Of a stretch of 64,000 bases of DNA, positions 2,549 through 11,631 are shown one piece after another; positions within the stretch are counted from its first letter, which is position 1, and each line of letters begins with the position of its first letter. The notes beneath the pieces were generated by a model. The model searched no databases, was not told the origin of the DNA, and worked only from the letters and a program-made list of their open reading frames with translations. The stretch lies in the IMG/VR virus record IMGVR_UViG_3300015050_001142, positions 1 to 64,000 of that record. The stretch is one strand, 5' to 3'. The position numbers and the translations under genes are program-made. The DNA is from a virus.

Positions 2549-2900
2549 TTTGTTGTTTTGATTTATGATGTTGAATAAAATCGTTTGACCACTTAAATAC
2601 ATTAGGATTAGTTCCTGCATTCTCTAAATGGGTTTGGTATATACCAGGTTCTCTTGCACCGCGAGGAAATTTACAAGAATTATTCATGAATTGTAATGCT
2701 CCAATACAAGGAGAATTTATAGCAGCTTTTGTAAGATCAGTTTTACCTTCATCATCATCATAATCAATAGCCATATGACATGGCATGATATGATATTCCA
2801 TTGGCTTAAGAAATTCCTCTGGTTGATGTGATAAAGTACCTAAATATCCCGGTGCGCTTTCTTTCCGGAATGGACATTCCTTACAAGGTTTTTTACACAT
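2526..2900 (-). CDS. Cys-rich DUF6283-like protein
   Basis: KPCKECPFRK...PCH...CIGALQF pattern. Confidence 0.65.
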   Translation of the reverse strand: MCKKPCKECPFRKESAPGYLGTLSHQPEEFLKPMEYHIMPCHMAIDYDDDEGKTDLTKAAINSPCIGALQFMNNSCKFPRGAREPGIYQTHLENAGTNPNVFKWSNDFIQHHKSKQQNGNRKSR

Positions 2901-2915
2901 AGTTATTAATTTAAA

Positions 2916-3171
2916 AAGTACCAGGTAGAGAGTTTTACACTCTCATCAGTCTTTATGTCTTGGATAGGACCGTTGGTGATCTATCCCAGGATTGTACTGT
3001 ACTATGTTATACAAAAGTAAATTGCGTCACCTGAATCGAGCTACTTAAAGCACAAACGTTGTTTCCTTTACTGTATAAGTATAATTGTTCGAGTTCCACG
3101 CTGATTACAGTTGGTCTACTTATGCTACACAGCATGTTCAACTATTGCCTTACGGCGAGTACCTGGTACTT
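2916..3171 (-). ncRNA. candidate structured RNA with tRNA-like closing domain
   Basis: 12 bp terminal inverted repeat AAGTACCAGGTA/TACCTGGTACTT, with a T-arm-like hairpin GAGAG-TGTAAAA-CTCTC next to the 3' strand; no ORF. Confidence 0.55.
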
Positions 3172-3173
3172 AA

Positions 3174-3957: not shown

Positions 3958-4266
3958 TTAATTTAAGATCTCATCTTCTGTGAGATAGTTACATAATTGA
4001 GTTGAATATTTGGGAAGGTACTTTTTAAGCGATTGCATAGTACCTGAAGTGAAACTGGCACTTGGATTAACTTGTAAGTATTGAGCAAGCTGAGATAAAT
4101 ACATTGAATCACCTTTAGTAAATCCAACTCCATTCTCAATCAAAGTGGTACCTGCATCTTGTTCCAATTCTTCCTGTTTCTCATACAGTTTAAGTAAACA
4201 CTTAATTCTGAATTCAGGATCAGATAAGATGCGAGCTTCGATGATTAATTTCTTTTCAGTATTCAT
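3958..4266 (-). CDS. phage hypothetical protein
   Basis: LYEKQ...EQ...T..ENGVGF..KYSTQL pattern resembling other phage small proteins. Confidence 0.7.
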   Translation of the reverse strand: MNTEKKLIIEARILSDPEFRIKCLLKLYEKQEELEQDAGTTLIENGVGFTKGDSMYLSQLAQYLQVNPSASFTSGTMQSLKKYLPKYSTQLCNYLTEDEILN

Positions 4267-4934
4267 CTGCGTTTAGGTTTTTTAAGATCGTCTTCTTCCT
4301 TCACTGCTAGCTCCATTGGATTCTTTAAACCGGCTTTCTTTAAACGATCTCTGATCTCACAATAATTTGCAAGCTTGATCATATGTTGTCGATTAGCTTC
4401 CTGGAATATTTCATCAGGATCAGGGTCCCATGTACCGGATTTATCATTTTTAGCCCAAGGACTAATGTGAAAGGTAATGGCGGGCATCTTGTCAATTTTA
4501 CCCCAACCATATTCCATAACAGCTTTTACCATCTTAGGATACTTTTCAAAGTGATCACCGCCCCATATTTCCAGTAATGTACAATCTCCCCAGGTTGGAT
4601 GTTCAATTACACCTACAGCTTTACGGTACTGTACCAGATCATAATCACTCCATCCTTCAAAACCACTACCATTATGTTTGAATCCTTGGCCCATGAAACA
4701 TTTACGGCTGTTACGTGGAGTAAATGTATCAATATTGTATTCTCCTTTCTTTGGATAAACACGATAGATTTCAATTTCTTGTTTAAGCATTTCAATTGCT
4801 TGGCGCTTAGTAGTACGTAAGATTTTATCATGTATTGCTGGACCAGTTATTGGTTCAGTTGGTAGGATTGATTTGATTAACTCATCTCTTTTTATTCCTT
4901 CTGGAGTACTATCTTTAAAATGAATTGATGGCAT
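4263..4934 (-). CDS. hypothetical protein
   Basis: 223 aa ORF, ATGA overlap with the next gene. Confidence 0.7.
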   Translation of the reverse strand: MPSIHFKDSTPEGIKRDELIKSILPTEPITGPAIHDKILRTTKRQAIEMLKQEIEIYRVYPKKGEYNIDTFTPRNSRKCFMGQGFKHNGSGFEGWSDYDLVQYRKAVGVIEHPTWGDCTLLEIWGGDHFEKYPKMVKAVMEYGWGKIDKMPAITFHISPWAKNDKSGTWDPDPDEIFQEANRQHMIKLANYCEIRDRLKKAGLKNPMELAVKEEDDLKKPKRR

Positions 4935-5254: not shown

Positions 5255-5333
5255 TGCAAAGAGAGATGGAATCGAACCACCGTACACCGAATATTACTAT
5301 CCGAGAGCTTACCGCTTGCTACTTTATCTCTCT
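5255..5333 (-). tRNA. degenerate tRNA-like element (possibly Tyr/GTA-derived)
   Basis: Minus strand: AGAGAGA/TCTCTTT acceptor-like stem and T arm GGTGG-TTCGATT-CCATC; D and anticodon arms are irregular. Confidence 0.45.
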
Positions 5334-5490
5334 ACCAATACTTAACGTTGCCAGCAACCCTAAAATCGCTTAAATTTGGAACTGGCAGATGTTTTTCCCT
5401 GCTTATTAAGTATTCCCTCTCAATCGTTTTTCTCCCTCTGAGGTTATGGGATAGATCTCCAATTGTCATGAAGACATATGATGATCAGTG

Positions 5491-5562
5491 TGATGAGACT
5501 GGGGATCGAACCCAGGACATACGCATTTGAAGTACGTTATTCTACCTCTGAATTATCTCATC
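5491..5562 (-). tRNA. tRNA with UCA anticodon (opal suppressor type)
   Basis: Full cloverleaf: GATGAGA/TCTCATC acceptor, ATTC-AGAGGTA-GAAT D arm, ACGTA-CTTCAAA-TGCGT anticodon arm, 5 nt variable loop, CTGGG-TTCGATC-CCCAG T arm, discriminator A, no encoded CCA. Confidence 0.9.
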
Positions 5563-5724: not shown

Positions 5725-6042
5725 TTACTCAAGCATTGGTAAGCTTGAAAAGATATTATGCTTATCTGTACAACAACTCATTGCTGTTTTTTGATTACCA
5801 ATACTAGGTTCCCTAAATGCAAATGATGCGATTGATCTTTGTGCGAGTTTTCTTTGCCATAACTTAATAGCATCCTCATTGGGTACCAGTAATAAAACTT
5901 TTGTATGCACTTCGGGTAAATCGTTAACACCATTTTTATAAAAGTAATTATCGCACCATAATTCAACCGCATGACATGCTTGTACAGCTCTCTGAGCATT
6001 ACTAAGATCCTGTCTGACCAAGATATACAGTTTCGGGGGCAT
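5725..6042 (-). CDS. PTH2-like peptidyl-tRNA hydrolase domain protein
   Basis: KLYILVRQDL...AVQACHAV...KVLLLV.NE...FREP.IGNQKTA. Confidence 0.75.
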   Translation of the reverse strand: MPPKLYILVRQDLSNAQRAVQACHAVELWCDNYFYKNGVNDLPEVHTKVLLLVPNEDAIKLWQRKLAQRSIASFAFREPSIGNQKTAMSCCTDKHNIFSSLPMLE

Positions 6043-6388
6043 AGCGTTTCAGGATTTCTTGTAAATATTGAGGGTTAATCTTTTCTGCTTGTTTGAGTGT
6101 AACTGCTGGCAGAAGCTTTGTATAACCACCATACTTGGTACGGAATTGATTATACGCGATGTACATATGCCTGAGATCTACTTTATTGATCTCAACCATA
6201 CGTGTTGCATCAGACGATTCTAACTTACGCAAACCAGTACCAAAGTTTACAGTCTTACGGTTTAATTTAATACAGGTTTGCTCTTCTGAGAGCCTTTTAA
6301 TGTCAGATTTGAATCTGTCTTTCTGCTGTTTGTACGCTTTCTGTGCAGCTAATACTTCTGGAGATAATTGTTGTTGATTAGTTTCCAT
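6002..6388 (-). CDS. phage hypothetical protein (RH..IAY motif)
   Basis: DLRHMYIAYNQFR; overlaps the PTH2-like gene. Confidence 0.65.
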   Translation of the reverse strand: METNQQQLSPEVLAAQKAYKQQKDRFKSDIKRLSEEQTCIKLNRKTVNFGTGLRKLESSDATRMVEINKVDLRHMYIAYNQFRTKYGGYTKLLPAVTLKQAEKINPQYLQEILKRYAPETVYLGQTGS

Positions 6389-6753: not shown

Positions 6754-7758
6754 ATGCCTGATCTAATCAAATTCGGTTCAACCGATAAAGCTGCAATACA
6801 GGATATCAAAACTAAGCTTAATGCATCAGGCAAATATGGTAAAATTGATGTAACCAATCCAGTATTTGATTTCGGTACTCTTGAAATTGTTAAACAATTC
6901 CAGAAAGATAATGGGCTTAAACCAGATGGTATTGTAGGCCCACTTACTCAAGCGAAATTGAATGCTCCAAAGAGTTGGGCAGTACCTGCAGATAAGCCGG
7001 TTAAGGCTTCTACTGATAATACACGAGTGGCTAAAGAATTGCATCCAGAAATGGCTACAAGCAATGATCAAACCGCTATTGGTAAAATATTAGCCGATGG
7101 TTTGCGTAAAGCAACACCTTTTGTGCCCAACAACGTTGGTAACTGGGCGCGAAAGAAAATGGGAATATCAACAGCCATGAATAATAATTCTATTAAGAAA
7201 ATGGATAAAGCGGCTCTTTACAAAATGGTTGATAATGCTATTAAACGTACTGGTAAATTATCAGGTACTACTGAATATGAAGATTACGAAACTACCCCTA
7301 ATGCAAAGAAAAAGATTATAGAAATTAAAAAGGGAAATCTTAATCCGTTGATTGGTGCTTATCTTGGCACTGTAGACCCAGCTTATAATATGGCTACAAC
7401 AGTAGGTAGAGGAAGTTACACTAAAGATCCTGTCACTGGTAATATTAAGTATACTGATAACTATGATTTCAAAAATAATTTTACGCAAGATTCTACTACC
7501 GGTAAATTGAAAGCCGGGTATATGAAAAATCGTGATGATTTTTATGGAATTGAACGTAGGAAACTTGCTGAAGAAGCTAACACAGAATCTCAAAGCAAAC
7601 GCCCCCCTGCACCGAACAAGATTCGTTTTGATCTATCTCCTAAAGATACAATAGGGTACCAAAAATTTCTTGATTCAAGGGGTGATATTGCTGGTTTATC
7701 ATCTAACAAATCTGCAGCGCGATCTCTTTACGATCGATATCATAAGAAGAGTAAATAA
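6754..7758 (+). CDS. peptidoglycan-binding domain protein with a virion/cargo-like C-terminal region
   Basis: N-terminal PG_binding_1-like motif (FDFGTLEIVKQFQKDNGLKPDGIVGPLT) closely matches the N-terminus of the endolysin at 23589. Confidence 0.8.
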   Translation: MPDLIKFGSTDKAAIQDIKTKLNASGKYGKIDVTNPVFDFGTLEIVKQFQKDNGLKPDGIVGPLTQAKLNAPKSWAVPADKPVKASTDNTRVAKELHPEMATSNDQTAIGKILADGLRKATPFVPNNVGNWARKKMGISTAMNNNSIKKMDKAALYKMVDNAIKRTGKLSGTTEYEDYETTPNAKKKIIEIKKGNLNPLIGAYLGTVDPAYNMATTVGRGSYTKDPVTGNIKYTDNYDFKNNFTQDSTTGKLKAGYMKNRDDFYGIERRKLAEEANTESQSKRPPAPNKIRFDLSPKDTIGYQKFLDSRGDIAGLSSNKSAARSLYDRYHKKSK

Positions 7759-7881
7759 GATGATAATCATCGATGGCATGATAATCACAAATAACCATAC
7801 GTTTAACGCTTCATAGGTTGTATGTAATTGAGCTGCCCAAAATTGTAGTGCTTCAACGCACCAATAGAACACTTTGTTCAT
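7699..7881 (-). CDS. small membrane protein
   Basis: TYEALNVWLFVII followed by a hydrophobic helix. Confidence 0.6.
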   Translation of the reverse strand: MNKVFYWCVEALQFWAAQLHTTYEALNVWLFVIIMPSMIIILFTLLMISIVKRSRCRFVR

Positions 7882-7903
7882 ATACTTGAATTTAGTAAAA
7901 AAT

Positions 7904-8256
7904 AAGATTGATTATAAGCCTCAGAAGTACGCTTCAGCCCAATGGCATCACCGTTTCGACCACGTTCTCTGATCAAGAGTTTTGTGCGGTACTTTATAAT
8001 CAATCTCTGCTCCCGGAAGAATATCACTACTCAACCGGGAATTCGTTGTGATGCGCCTACCTGCATTCACATTAAGACCGCAGGACAGTTTATGAAGATT
8101 TCTCTTCTCATGTTAGGCCGTTGTCAACGAAGGGTTTAGTAACCTCTGAAAATCACCAAGACCTAATTTAATCTCTCGATAAAAATGAGGCCAGGGTAGA
8201 AACTCCGGCCGTGATCTTTAAACGTTTGTATGGTCCTTATTTACTATCGAGGAGAT
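7904..8256 (-). ncRNA. cluster of structured intergenic elements
   Basis: 13 bp closing stem AGATTGATTATAA/TTATAATCAATCT (about 7904-8006), the repeated 30 nt hairpin at 8011-8040, and further hairpins. Confidence 0.45.
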
Positions 8257-9607: not shown

Positions 9608-10048
9608 TTACTTGAATTTTGATTCATCGATGTCAAGCTTCTTTCTACATTCTGGGCCAATACCGATAGTTAATGATAGAGCCTCAGTCAAGGATCTACC
9701 ACAATGACCGCATGTATCACTACGTAGGATCTCGATATAATCTGGTACTGCTTGCTTTTGGATTTTATCCCACATCCATCCGAATACTCTCATTGGATTA
9801 CCAAGTACCACTTCATTAGGTACATCAATACCCGATGAGAAATTACCTTCTGGGTTATTACCAGTGTAGATACTACCTAAGAAAGTTTTCTTTAAATTAT
9901 GGTGTGTAACAAACCAGGTATTATCAGAATCTTTCTTTGCTTTGATAAGATATGTAAATTGATTACCAGTTAATGTATTGTGGAATGTAACCATCGCTCT
10001 TCCAGCAAGCATATAATCCTTGGCATACTTCTGGTCTAATGCTTTCAT
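9608..10048 (-). CDS. DUF6011-like Zn-binding protein
   Basis: C-terminal CGHCGRSLT...SLTIGIGPECRKK. Confidence 0.8.
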   Translation of the reverse strand: MKALDQKYAKDYMLAGRAMVTFHNTLTGNQFTYLIKAKKDSDNTWFVTHHNLKKTFLGSIYTGNNPEGNFSSGIDVPNEVVLGNPMRVFGWMWDKIQKQAVPDYIEILRSDTCGHCGRSLTEALSLTIGIGPECRKKLDIDESKFK

Positions 10049-10392
10049 CTTTTAAGATTTTTGTGATCAAGCCATGAATCTCTCATCTCAACATAGTTAC
10101 CATCTCTCAATGGATGAAGATGAATATCGTTAGATTGAGATTTAAAACTACCTTGACTATAACATACAATATTATCTGTATGCTTATTGAGTTTATATAA
10201 TTCAATAAGTTGATAGAAAGTGAAATACGGGCCTACACCTTTGGAATTATTAAGATTACCAGGATGTAATACAAATCTCGCTTTCTTACGTCTTGTAGCA
10301 TACAAGAACATAATCATTGCAATAACAATAATACCACCAGCCAAATAAATGATTGGTAGCATACCGGGATTAATTACTTCGTTTCCGTTCAT
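10045..10392 (-). CDS. membrane-anchored hypothetical protein
   Basis: N-terminal TM helix followed by RRKK. Confidence 0.6.
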   Translation of the reverse strand: MNGNEVINPGMLPIIYLAGGIIVIAMIMFLYATRRKKARFVLHPGNLNNSKGVGPYFTFYQLIELYKLNKHTDNIVCYSQGSFKSQSNDIHLHPLRDGNYVEMRDSWLDHKNLKR

Positions 10393-10737
10393 AGAATTTC
10401 AGTTTAGGTGGTTTTAAAATAAAAAAAGTACCAGGCTTGAACTCACACCCAAGCACTGGTACATTACTATAGATTATCTCTGTGGTATTGAAACCACTTA
10501 ACCGGCCTTGAGATTGCAGGCTGTCTTTCGACTTTGCTCCAGATAACTATCACTGATTATTCTGGAAAGAGCAATATCATTCTTCGTGAATAATATATGT
10601 ATCTGCTCTTAGCTCCCGAAAGTATATCACTATACAATCGGGAATGGAAGGTCTGCCACTCAATCATTTTTCGGATAATGAATCTGACTAAGGATCTCGT
10701 CCATAGCCAGGAAGAACCCCATATGTCTTCTATTGCC

Positions 10738-11087
10738 AGTTACCTATGAACCTTGTCTCTGTTGCTAATGTAATGCATATCTTAGCTTCTCCAATTAATT
10801 CTCAATTGCATGGATAGTAAAACGTCAAGACACATCAAGACTTTAAATATTACAGTCAAGCAGTGATCAGTGTTACTAAAGAGATCGCTCCCGGAAAGAG
10901 ATTTCTCTCTAACCGGGATAGTTCAGCTTCGATCTGCCGAGGCAGTATATTCTAAGCGGAGAACTGTATGTTTAGTAAAGAGTGTGAGTAGCCTCTTACA
11001 AACTACAATACTTATCATCATTACACATTCCATGAATCACCTTTATACAGGAATTACATTCATAGCTCTCGACAAGAGATAGGTACT
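10738..11087 (-). ncRNA. candidate ~350 nt multibranch structured RNA
   Basis: Nested long-range pairings AGTACCTAT/ATAGGTAACT, CTTGTC/GACAAG, AATGTAAT/ATTACATT, TTACTAAA/TTTAGTAA; contains the repeated GNRA hairpin at 10889-10918. Confidence 0.6.
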
Positions 11088-11097
11088 GTTAAAAAAT

Positions 11098-11631
11098 TTA
11101 TGCTTCAGTGGTTGAAGCCGGCAATGAATTCAAATTACCAGTTGCCTGGTTGAGTTTCTTCTGCCACATGCTTTTCAGATCTTCTTTCTCGATGAATTGC
11201 TCGCCTTCTTTGATCAGTGCAGCCAATGCTTCGTGTGTTTCTTTCTGCAGGTTAATGCTAATACGCAGGTTAACATCGTGGTTCCAATCTTCGTAAGGAA
11301 ATCCTTCAATTGTAAAGATAGGTACACTCTTACCCTTCAATATAGGCAGACGGCTTACAGCTGCATCATAAGCTAATTTACGCTGGTATGCGCCGGCTTC
11401 CATGCAGATCAGATCTTCCAAAGGAATATTGATAGCATCCTTGTCTTTGATGTTAGCAAAACCATCACCATATTCACCATTGGTTTTCCACGGTGTTTCA
11501 GTGATTTTCTCAAGTGATGCTAATTGCTTTTTCAGGTCTTCTAATTGGGCCATAATACCATTACTGTTACCACTGCTTAAAATTTCTACTGCATCAGCAT
11601 TGCGCTGGAAATTGATCATTGTTGTTTTCAT
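11098..11631 (-). CDS. coiled-coil phage hypothetical protein directly upstream of the structured RNA
   Basis: PWKTNG...AYDAAV..L...F.IEG..YEDW..D..LRI pattern. Confidence 0.75.
   Translation of the reverse strand: MKTTMINFQRNADAVEILSSGNSNGIMAQLEDLKKQLASLEKITETPWKTNGEYGDGFANIKDKDAINIPLEDLICMEAGAYQRKLAYDAAVSRLPILKGKSVPIFTIEGFPYEDWNHDVNLRISINLQKETHEALAALIKEGEQFIEKEDLKSMWQKKLNQATGNLNSLPASTTEA

What the first reader, a model, noticed from the sequence alone, without database searches (positions are those of the whole stretch)
10738..11631. ~350 nt multibranch RNA directly downstream of a 177 aa coiled-coil gene: candidate RNP system
Seen: about 700 nt without a credible ORF in a densely coding genome. 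The first 350 nt begin 10 nt after the stop codon and show nested long-range helices (AGTACCTAT/ATAGGTAACT, CTTGTC/GACAAG, AATGTAAT/ATTACATT, TTACTAAA/TTTAGTAA), a copy of the repeated hairpin and a short GTCTTGA direct repeat. Inference: a large ncRNA co-transcribed with, and possibly bound by, the upstream protein.
Basis: partly seen in the sequence, partly recalled or inferred. Interest (0 to 1): 0.75.

Follow-up and report, generated by a model that had tools for sequence, protein, structure and literature searches.

The report
Orphan structured noncoding stretch, crAss-like phage
A 705-base gene-free stretch in the variable small-gene arm of an uncultured crAss-like phage looks like folded non-coding RNA built around a repeated 30-base hairpin found only in this phage. 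It is not tied to the protein gene in front of it, and no relative or RNA data confirm it.

Summary
The sequence features are mostly real. On the minus strand, 10393-11097 (705 nt) has no ORF under any stop-codon reading, no residual codon bias, no protein-family remnant and no Rfam match. It ends in a strong intrinsic terminator.

It splits into two folded domains:
- Domain A (10735-11090) is closed by significant terminal arms, but its overall z-score is only -2.4.
- Domain B (10420-10734) has z -4.9, the most structured window found in the 9 kb scanned.

The stretch holds three of the genome's four copies of a 30-nt hairpin: a conserved 6-bp base, a UU/UU internal loop, a covarying 5-bp stem and a GNRA loop. 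The fourth copy lies in a second gene-free stretch (7890-8185). No properly paired copy was found in IMG/VR, in the metagenome contigs or in 185,579 species genomes.

The proposed pairing with the 177-aa protein fails. Eight distinct viral loci (nine fetched) encode relatives of that protein, and in all of them the next ORF starts within about 70 nt, with no RNA downstream.

There are no homologues of the stretch and no RNA data, so the RNA gene remains an inference. The closest precedent is the abundant early long non-coding RNAs of the crAss-like phage phi14:2. Earlier agents in this scan noted similar gene-free stretches in other crAss-like phages, on other DNA.

The parts
11098..11631 (-). 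177-aa helical protein gene, a member of a phage protein family of unknown function; not specifically linked to the RNA
   Evidence: ORF. 187 phmmer relatives. 19 of 40 members match phrog_2574. AlphaFold pLDDT 84, helices at 24-44, 71-94 and 113-168. No informative fold match.
11091..11118 (-). Weak terminator-like hairpin (6 bp, -7.1 kcal/mol) overlapping the stop codon, followed by a U6 run
10735..11090 (-). Domain A: a 356-nt multibranch fold closed by about 40-nt imperfect inverted terminal arms (11045-11090 with 10735-10780)
   Evidence: MFE -94.8, z -2.44. Arms -28.9 kcal/mol, 0/1000 shuffles, 1/1289 genomic controls; pair probability 0.99 for two helices.
10889..10918 (-). Hairpin module copy 1 (GAAA loop)
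   Evidence: pair probability 0.95-1.0
10825..10841 (-). GTCTTGA x2 direct repeat with a 10-nt period; no significance shown
   Evidence: read
10420..10734 (-). Domain B: a 315-nt multibranch fold and the most structured part of the stretch
   Evidence: MFE -98.5, z -4.93, 0/100. In the 350-nt window scan of 7.7-16.8 kb the extreme is z -6.2 at 10325-10674, against +1.4 to -3.1 for the windows outside the two gene-free stretches, almost all coding. 65 pairs with p>=0.8.
10614..10643 (-). Hairpin module copy 2 (GUGA loop)
10532..10569 (-). Degenerate fourth hairpin module (GUGA loop; the GGAGC-AAAG tail is kept)
   Evidence: covariance model R1, 22.9 bits, E 0.0002-0.02
10421..10462 (-). Intrinsic terminator: a 14-bp hairpin (-19.1 kcal/mol, two G-U pairs specific to the minus strand) followed by U7
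   Evidence: on the plus strand no U run follows
10045..10392 (-). Next gene (115 aa, N-terminal membrane helix); its start lies 28 nt after the terminator's U run
7890..8185 (-). Second gene-free structured stretch carrying hairpin module copy 3 (8011-8040). It lies between a terminator (8180-8210) and a U-rich end.
   Evidence: z -3.27, 0/200. Hairpin. No codon bias. Terminator.

Best explanation
The 705-nt stretch is a minus-strand non-coding transcript region of an environmental crAss-like phage. It is either one RNA of about 650 nt or two of about 330 nt, and it ends at the strong terminator at 10421-10462. It folds into two multibranch domains.

Its functional core is a phage-specific 30-nt hairpin module present three times here and once more in the gene-free stretch at 7890-8185. 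The module has a sequence-conserved base (UCCCGR/YCGGGA plus GC), two U-U mismatches, a 5-bp spacer stem of free sequence but fixed length, and a GNRA cap.

I infer that the RNA accumulates as a stable structured RNA, like the early long non-coding RNAs of phi14:2. I further infer that the repeated modules are docking sites for one partner. The most likely partner is a protein, which would make the RNA a multi-site scaffold or sponge. The alternative partner is another copy of the module.

Shown: absence of coding signal, the terminator, excess folding, and the repeated covarying hairpin. Inferred: transcription, stability and binding. The 177-aa protein is not part of the system.
For: - No ORF in any stop-codon reading.
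- The codon-usage score of the gap equals that of shuffles: 0.02 against 0.24 for coding windows, whose 5th percentile is 0.11.
- No Pfam or PHROG remnant in the six-frame pieces.
- The genome is about 95% coding, so 705 free bases are unusual.
- A strong minus-strand terminator closes the stretch.
- Folding z-scores are -4.9 (domain B), -2.4 (domain A) and -3.3 (7890-8185). The scan extreme lies inside the gap.
- A generic structural scan of the whole 95.6-kb genome, both strands, finds the hairpin architecture exactly three times, all on the minus strand and all in gene-free DNA. The same scan finds 3 unrelated terminators in 598 kb of other phage DNA.
- All 33 pair cells of the three copies are paired, and 4 of 11 pairs change on both sides.
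- Copy 3 has a G-U pair that would be an A-C mismatch on the other strand.
- Of 56 database sequences that share the 18 fixed bases, none keeps the inner stem.
- Precedent: phi14:2 makes two abundant, persistent long non-coding RNAs from long intergenic regions of its early arm (bioRxiv 10.1101/2020.03.07.982082). Related phages carry a tmRNA in comparable gaps.
Against: - No homologue of the stretch exists in any collection searched, so there is no cross-species covariation.
- No promoter was recognised: the Bacteroidota -7 box is absent.
- Plus-strand folds have similar z-scores. G-U counts separate the strands only for 7890-8185.
- Domain A's overall stability is within reach of chance (1 of 100 shuffles).
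- Outside the hairpin, the three units share nothing alignable.
- The hairpin evidence rests on three or four paralogous copies in one genome.
Confidence: 0.5

Rival explanations
1. The stretch is a cis-acting intergenic spacer rather than an RNA gene: a long structured 3' tail of the upstream small-gene operon. Its hairpins would be processing, stability or read-through signals, and its terminator would gate expression of the genes from 10392 down to 8263.
For: - No own promoter was found.
- Terminator-like hairpins bracket both gene-free stretches.
- The next gene starts only 28 nt after the terminator, so its expression needs read-through or a hidden promoter.
- The fourth hairpin copy sits at the very end of the minus-strand gene block, after its terminator.
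Against: - 650 nt is very long for a 3' tail in a genome that is 95% coding.
- The hairpins have no U tract and total only 11 bp, which from my own knowledge is short for RNase III.
- Two closed multibranch domains are more than a signal needs.
Confidence: 0.25
2. One reading: a ribonucleoprotein in which the 177-aa coiled-coil protein binds the RNA encoded directly downstream.
For: Adjacency and the shared strand only. In one family-bearing contig (L130), a module resembling part of a phi14:2 non-coding RNA lies 1.8 kb downstream of the family gene (29.5 bits, E 0.004).
Against: - All nine loci with a family member (eight distinct) have an ORF within 0-70 nt downstream and no hairpin module.
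- The family is spread over unrelated phages. Its structural neighbours include uncharacterised proteins of Bacillus phages Hakuna and CAM003.
- No RNA-binding fold was recognised.
- A terminator-like hairpin separates the gene from the RNA.
- The fourth hairpin copy lies 3 kb away, behind a different gene.
Confidence: 0.05
3. The stretch is the remnant of one or more decayed protein genes in a fast-turnover slot.
For: - The 2-29 kb arm has almost no homologues in three complete relatives.
- In L097 and L096 the family gene and the DUF6011 gene keep the same order, but small ORFs fill the slot between them.
Against: - There is no residual codon bias in any frame.
- There is no family remnant.
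- Folding exceeds that of coding windows.
- The hairpin modules show compensatory changes, which decay would not preserve.
Confidence: 0.07
4. Domain A is a small non-autonomous mobile insertion (MITE-like), and its 'closing helix' is really a pair of terminal inverted repeats.
For: A 350-bp unit bounded by about 40-nt imperfect inverted arms that are all Watson-Crick and therefore strand-neutral. Plus- and minus-strand z-scores are equal.
Against: - It is a single copy in the phage.
- blastn of the whole 705-nt stretch against the phage records found nothing. The other collections were searched for the hairpin pattern only, which found no properly paired copy.
- No target-site duplication is visible at its ends.
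- It contains a hairpin module that also occurs outside it.
Confidence: 0.07
5. A very diverged tmRNA or other tRNA-like RNA, as found in comparable gaps of related phages.
For: - phi14:2 and the relative G002 carry tmRNA genes in 625-690-nt gaps of the same arm.
- Domain B has a T-arm-like hairpin (GUGGU-UUCAAU-ACCAC) directly 5' of the 3' strand of its closing helix.
- There is a noise-level alpha_tmRNA hit at 10721-10832 (14 bits).
Against: - ARAGORN finds nothing down to 80% of its thresholds.
- Rfam reports no tmRNA hit even on 361 nt alone.
- The closing helix has no G3-U70 pair, there is no CCA-type 3' end, and no tag frame ends in an Ala-Ala or Val-Ala type tail.
Confidence: 0.04

Closest known systems
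Early long non-coding RNAs of the crAss-like Cellulophaga phage phi14:2 (g004-g005 and g005-g006 junctions; Drobysheva et al., bioRxiv 10.1101/2020.03.07.982082)
   Same: Gene-free stretches of about 690 nt among small genes of a crAss-like phage, co-oriented with the flanking genes. In phi14:2 they are transcribed early, more strongly than most genes, and they persist.
   Different: - There is no sequence or covariance-model similarity.
- One phi14:2 RNA region contains a tmRNA; this stretch does not.
- phi14:2 lacks the hairpin module.
- Expression here is untested.
Multi-site protein-sponge RNAs such as CsrB/RsmZ (comparison from my own knowledge)
   Same: A non-coding RNA that presents several copies of one short hairpin motif.
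   Different: - The conserved part here is the stem base and a UU/UU internal loop, not a GGA loop.
- There are only 3-4 copies.
- No partner protein is known, and no Csr-type system was identified here.
Loop-receptor hairpins of tectoRNA and of large oligomeric RNAs (ROOL, GOLLD) (comparison from my own knowledge)
   Same: A GNRA cap and a conserved C-G-rich helix segment lie about one helical turn apart (pairs 9-12 counted from the loop). This geometry lets two hairpins dock side by side. GOLLD and ROOL are phage-associated.
   Different: - There is no Rfam match to GOLLD or ROOL.
- There is no canonical 11-nt receptor.
- Docking is pure inference.
RNase III processing hairpins between early genes of phage T7 (R1.1 type) (comparison from my own knowledge)
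   Same: Repeated hairpins with an internal loop in intergenic parts of a phage early transcript.
   Different: - This hairpin has only 11 bp with a symmetric 2x2 loop and a GNRA cap.
- The copies cluster in two gene-free stretches instead of lying between genes.

Membership tests
tmRNA (Rfam RF00023 and permuted forms) | Covariance-model or ARAGORN match: a tRNA-like domain with a G3-U70 acceptor pair and T-arm, plus a tag reading frame | tested here: not met
   - No hit at Rfam gathering scores.
- Only a 10-14 bit alpha_tmRNA hit in the E-value searches.
- ARAGORN finds none down to ps80.
- The same tools find tmRNA in phi14:2 and G002, which serve as positive controls.
Catalogued large or phage-associated RNAs (GOLLD, ROOL, HEARO, group I and II introns, ribozymes) in Rfam 15 | A covariance-model match at or near the gathering score | tested here: not met
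   No family of any kind at E <= 10 apart from two noise hits.
phi14:2 g004-g005 non-coding RNA module (shared with Cellulophaga phages phi4:1 and phi17:2) | A match to the conserved module of about 115 nt | tested here: not met
   Model R2, built from three phages, scores 105.9 bits on phi14:2 and 29.5 bits on L130. It finds nothing in the window at E <= 10. blastn and nhmmer are also negative. The model is shallow, with 1.19 effective sequences.
Structured non-coding RNA gene in general | Covariation across homologues, and a detected transcript | not testable with these tools
   No homologue in any collection. No sequencing run was listed. Only within-genome paralogue covariation of the 30-nt hairpin is available.
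Protein-RNA gene pair (177-aa family plus downstream RNA) | Homologous protein genes keep a structured non-coding element directly downstream | tested here: not met
   In nine loci (L096, L097, L129-L135; eight distinct) the next ORF lies 0-70 nt downstream. There is no hairpin module. The L097 275-nt gap further downstream has z -0.74.
Recoded protein gene (opal or amber reassignment, given the UCA tRNA) | A long open frame once TGA, TAG or TAA is read as sense | tested here: not met
   The longest frames in the gap are 83-130 aa pieces with several recoded stops, and they show no codon bias.
MITE-like mobile element | Multiple copies, terminal inverted repeats and a target-site duplication | tested here: inconclusive
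   Inverted arms are present. The element is a single copy in the phage and no duplication is visible at its ends. The host genome is unknown, and the arms themselves were not searched in the large collections.

The most novel reading that the evidence does not exclude
The 30-nt hairpin is a self-docking loop-receptor module: a GNRA cap plus a conserved C-G helix one turn away. Through three or four copies it makes this phage RNA fold or oligomerise into a defined particle. That would be a new, phage-private class of architectural RNA comparable to ROOL or GOLLD cages. Alternatively, the module is the operator of a still unidentified phage RNA-binding protein, forming a new regulatory circuit of crAss-like phages.
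Probability: 0.1. Interest if true: 0.75.

Novelty: new variant of a known kind. Interest (0 to 1): 0.38.

Why it matters
crAss-like phages are among the most abundant viruses known. Their early arms are turning out to carry many non-coding RNAs of unknown function: the abundant phi14:2 RNAs, tmRNAs, and several gene-free stretches noted by earlier agents of this scan.

This stretch adds a case in which the unit under selection can be pinned down to a 30-nt hairpin, with a fixed base, fixed length and free inner stem. That gives a concrete handle (a bait for pull-downs, or a probe for docking) on what such RNAs do.

The value is limited. The phage is uncultured, the element is private to one genome, and the attractive RNP idea does not hold.

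Tried and rejected
Searches for homologues of the stretch
- blastn of the gap and of 6 kb around it against 50,697 phage records: no match.
- BLAST of the gap against five related IMG/VR crAss-like records: only chance matches of 12-29 nt.
- The three complete relatives share no genes with the 2-29 kb arm, so no syntenic comparison was possible.
- All-against-all comparison of long gaps in this phage, its relatives and phi14:2: only the tmRNA and the hairpin recur.

Searches with the hairpin pattern (18 fixed bases)
- IMG/VR: 0 hits.
- Metagenome contigs: 32 hits, none with the stem.
- GTDB species genomes: 24 hits, none with the stem.

Searches for the 177-aa protein and its neighbours
- The search for related loci with the 177-aa protein, the 115-aa protein, the DUF6011 protein and P0009 as single queries: nothing.
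- tblastn of P0001 and P0010 against the phage records: nothing.
- The family profile in 401 Bacteroidota genomes: not found in those searched.
- The full family alignment was too variable for a pattern search.
- ESM Atlas: no usable hit.
- Foldseek against the PDB and VIA-align wide gave only generic long-helix matches, all below Z 8.

Tools and data not available
- Sequencing runs: none was listed and no RNA holder was listed.

Ideas considered and dropped
- A hairpin promoter for the virion RNA polymerase, N4-style. The orientation and position of the copies would drive antisense or non-genic transcription.
- RNA anti-CRISPR solitary repeats. The inner stems differ between copies.
- Type III toxin-antitoxin repeats. 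The copies are not tandem.
- Group II intron domain V. The internal loop is symmetric, there is no intron context and no Rfam hit.
- The UAUGG...CCUUAG string in domain B as a tetraloop receptor. It differs from the canonical receptor by one base and folds as a plain stem.

Full report
CONTEXT
The window is the first 64 kb of a 95,585-bp IMG/VR virus record rated 100% complete. Large terminase, portal and major head protein match PHROG families. The major head protein is about 33% identical to gut crAss-like phages and 52-76% identical to environmental IMG/VR contigs. A 3899-aa ORF of the size of the crAss virion RNA polymerase follows the structural genes (the assignment is from its size and my own knowledge). 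The phage is therefore an environmental crAss-like phage.

The finding lies in a block of small minus-strand genes (22.6 to 8.3 kb). This block has almost no homologues even in three complete relatives. The genome is about 95% coding under the standard code.

THE OBSERVATION
The 177-aa ORF is on the minus strand (11098-11631). The next minus-strand gene starts at 10392. The 705 nt between them hold no credible ORF under table 11, table 4, TAG=Q or TAA=Q. The recoded readings had to be checked because the phage carries a tRNA with anticodon UCA at 5490-5562.

- Codon-usage scores in the gap equal those of shuffled sequence: about 0.02, against 0.24 for coding windows of the same arm, whose 5th percentile is 0.11.
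- Ten six-frame pieces match no Pfam or PHROG family.
- Only two of the four helices are robust. TACCTAT/ATAGGTA and CTTGTC/GACAAG have pair probability about 0.99, AATGTAAT/ATTACATT about 0.35 and TTACTAAA/TTTAGTAA about 0.01.
- The terminal arms of the first 350 nt pair far better than chance: -28.9 kcal/mol, reached by 0 of 1000 shuffles and 1 of 1289 genomic controls.
- The domain as a whole is only marginal (z -2.44).

WHAT ELSE IS THERE

- 10420-10734 folds with z -4.93, 0 of 100 shuffles.
- It contains the extreme of a 350-nt window scan over 9 kb: z -6.2, against +1.4 to -3.1 for the windows outside the two gene-free stretches, almost all coding.
- It ends in a 14-bp hairpin of -19.1 kcal/mol followed by U7 (10421-10462).
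- The terminator's two G-U pairs and its U run exist only on the minus strand. This fixes the strand.
- A weak terminator-like hairpin with U6 overlaps the stop codon of the 177-aa gene (11091-11118).
- No Bacteroidota-type -7 box lies in the gap. How the region is transcribed is therefore unknown.

THE HAIRPIN MODULE
A purely structural scan was run over both strands of the whole genome. It asked for a 6-bp stem, a 2x2 loop, a 5-bp stem and a GNRA loop. It returns exactly three sites, all on the minus strand and all in gene-free DNA: 10889-10918, 10614-10643 and 8011-8040. The same scan over 598 kb of other phage DNA returns three unrelated terminators.

- The three copies share UCCCGR-UU...UU-YCGGGA-GC.
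- Their inner stems differ, yet all 33 pair cells are paired.
- Four of the 11 pairs change on both sides, and one copy has a G-U pair.
- A covariance model of the three copies finds a degenerate fourth copy at 10532-10569 that keeps the GUGA loop and the GGAGC-AAAG tail (22.9 bits).
- Outside the hairpin the flanks are not alignable.
- The pattern of 18 fixed bases occurs 0 times in IMG/VR, 32 times in metagenome contigs and 24 times in 185,579 species genomes. None of those 56 sites keeps the inner stem.

The module is therefore private to this phage. The third full copy lies in another gene-free, structured stretch (7890-8185, z -3.27). That stretch sits behind the terminator of the last gene of the block. 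I re-derived them independently and added the fourth copy and the controls.

THE PROTEIN AND THE RNP IDEA
The 177-aa protein has no close relative but 187 distant ones of about 150 aa. Of 40 members tested, 19 match phrog_2574, a family of unknown function.

- The AlphaFold model (pLDDT 84) is a long helical hairpin.
- Its only meaningful structural neighbours are uncharacterised phage proteins.
- PDB searches give generic coiled-coil matches below the noise level for helical models.
- Pattern searches recovered nine viral loci with a family member, eight of them distinct because L131 and L132 are near-identical.
- In every one of them another ORF starts 0-70 nt downstream on the same strand.
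- None of them contains the hairpin module.
- In L097 and L096 the family gene and a homologue of the DUF6011 gene (9608-10048 here) keep the same order, but the slot between them is filled by small ORFs.
- A 275-nt gap further downstream in L097 is not structured (z -0.74).

COMPARISON WITH KNOWN RNAs
Rfam 15 gives nothing at gathering scores, and only noise in E-value mode on 24 kb, 1.6 kb and 361 nt.

The published transcriptome of the crAss-like phage phi14:2 reports two long intergenic regions transcribed early, more strongly than most genes, and persisting. Their function was left open (bioRxiv 10.1101/2020.03.07.982082).

- In the phi14:2 record one of these regions contains a tmRNA: ARAGORN places it at 4031-4500 and Rfam scores it 46 bits, E 4.5e-16.
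- The relative G002 has a canonical tmRNA in a 625-nt gap of the same arm.
- The present gap is not a tmRNA by the same tools, even at relaxed thresholds.
- A model of the conserved module of the other phi14:2 RNA, which is shared with the unrelated Cellulophaga phages phi4:1 and phi17:2, finds nothing in the window.

The stretch therefore resembles the phi14:2 RNAs in kind (place, length, orientation) but belongs to no family I could test. Earlier agents of this scan reported several gene-free structured stretches in other crAss-like phages, some conserved and some orphan. These are on other DNA, and I did not check them.

MECHANISM
- Shown: the stretch is non-coding, is bounded by a minus-strand terminator, folds beyond chance in its 3' half, and carries repeated hairpin modules whose pairing is kept through compensatory change.
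- Inferred: it is transcribed with or after the small-gene operon and accumulates as structured RNA.
- The module's design is a fixed base, a fixed length, a free inner stem and a GNRA cap. This says that something reads the base and the UU/UU loop at a set distance from the cap.
- I rate a protein partner, with the RNA acting as scaffold or sponge, as the most likely reading. Hairpin-to-hairpin docking is the more novel alternative: the conserved C-G pairs lie 9-12 pairs from the loop, about one helical turn.
- A purely cis-acting role, as a structured 3' tail with read-through control of the genes behind the terminator, is the main rival.

LIMITS
- There is no homologue, so no covariation test of domains A and B was possible.
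- No run was listed for expression.
- Plus-strand folds score similarly.
- G-U counts favour the minus strand clearly only for 7890-8185.

VERDICT
This is a real gene-free, structured stretch and probably a phage-private non-coding RNA region organised around a repeated hairpin. The RNP link to the 177-aa protein is not supported. Interest is moderate.

Noticed in passing
L098 (NC_021806, Cellulophaga phage phi14:2) 4031-4500, + strand: ARAGORN calls a tmRNA (tag GSSVQKLAMVA*) and Rfam RF00023 scores 46 bits (gathering score 47, E 4.5e-16). It lies inside the g005-g006 junction, which the phi14:2 transcriptome paper describes as an abundant long non-coding RNA of unknown function. The record lists no RNA feature there.
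   Followed up: partly
L056 8487-8830, - strand (G002:C1:48487-48830): A complete relative of this phage carries a canonical tmRNA (G3-U70 pair, T-arm, tag ending AIAA*) in a 625-nt gap between small genes. A weak match to the hairpin model (18.5 bits, E 0.2) lies about 120 nt upstream at L056 8953-8991.
   Followed up: partly
window 5490-5562, - strand: A tRNA with anticodon UCA (66 bits). ARAGORN labels it SeC, but it looks like an opal suppressor. The window's genes are intact under the standard code.
   Followed up: partly
window 5257-5333, - strand: A sub-threshold tRNA-like match (22.7 bits, gathering score 29) about 160 nt downstream of the UCA tRNA on the same strand.
   Followed up: no
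window 2621-3173: A second long gap (553 nt). Its first 300 nt or so score like coding sequence on the codon-usage measure (0.28, 0.23), so a short or oddly started gene may have been missed there. The rest scores as non-coding. ARAGORN finds no tmRNA or tRNA down to 80% of its thresholds.
   Followed up: partly
L098 3247-3370; L127 (phi4:1) and L128 (phi17:2) about 492-606; L130 4685-4792: A module of about 115 nt in the phi14:2 g004-g005 non-coding region is shared at 74% identity with intergenic DNA of unrelated 145-kb Cellulophaga phages. It has a probable copy (29.5 bits, E 0.004) at the end of an 85-kb IMG/VR contig that also encodes a relative of the 177-aa protein.
   Followed up: partly
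window 9608-10048 with 11098-11631; L097 3938-4390 with 5726-6151; L096 3914-4381 with 7413-7832: The 177-aa family gene and a DUF6011-domain gene keep the same order and strand in three otherwise dissimilar viral contigs. The filling between them is variable.
   Followed up: partly
window 2000-29000: Nearly all genes of this arm lack homologues in three complete related phages, whereas the structural and replication modules are syntenic. It is a hyperplastic arm.
   Followed up: partly
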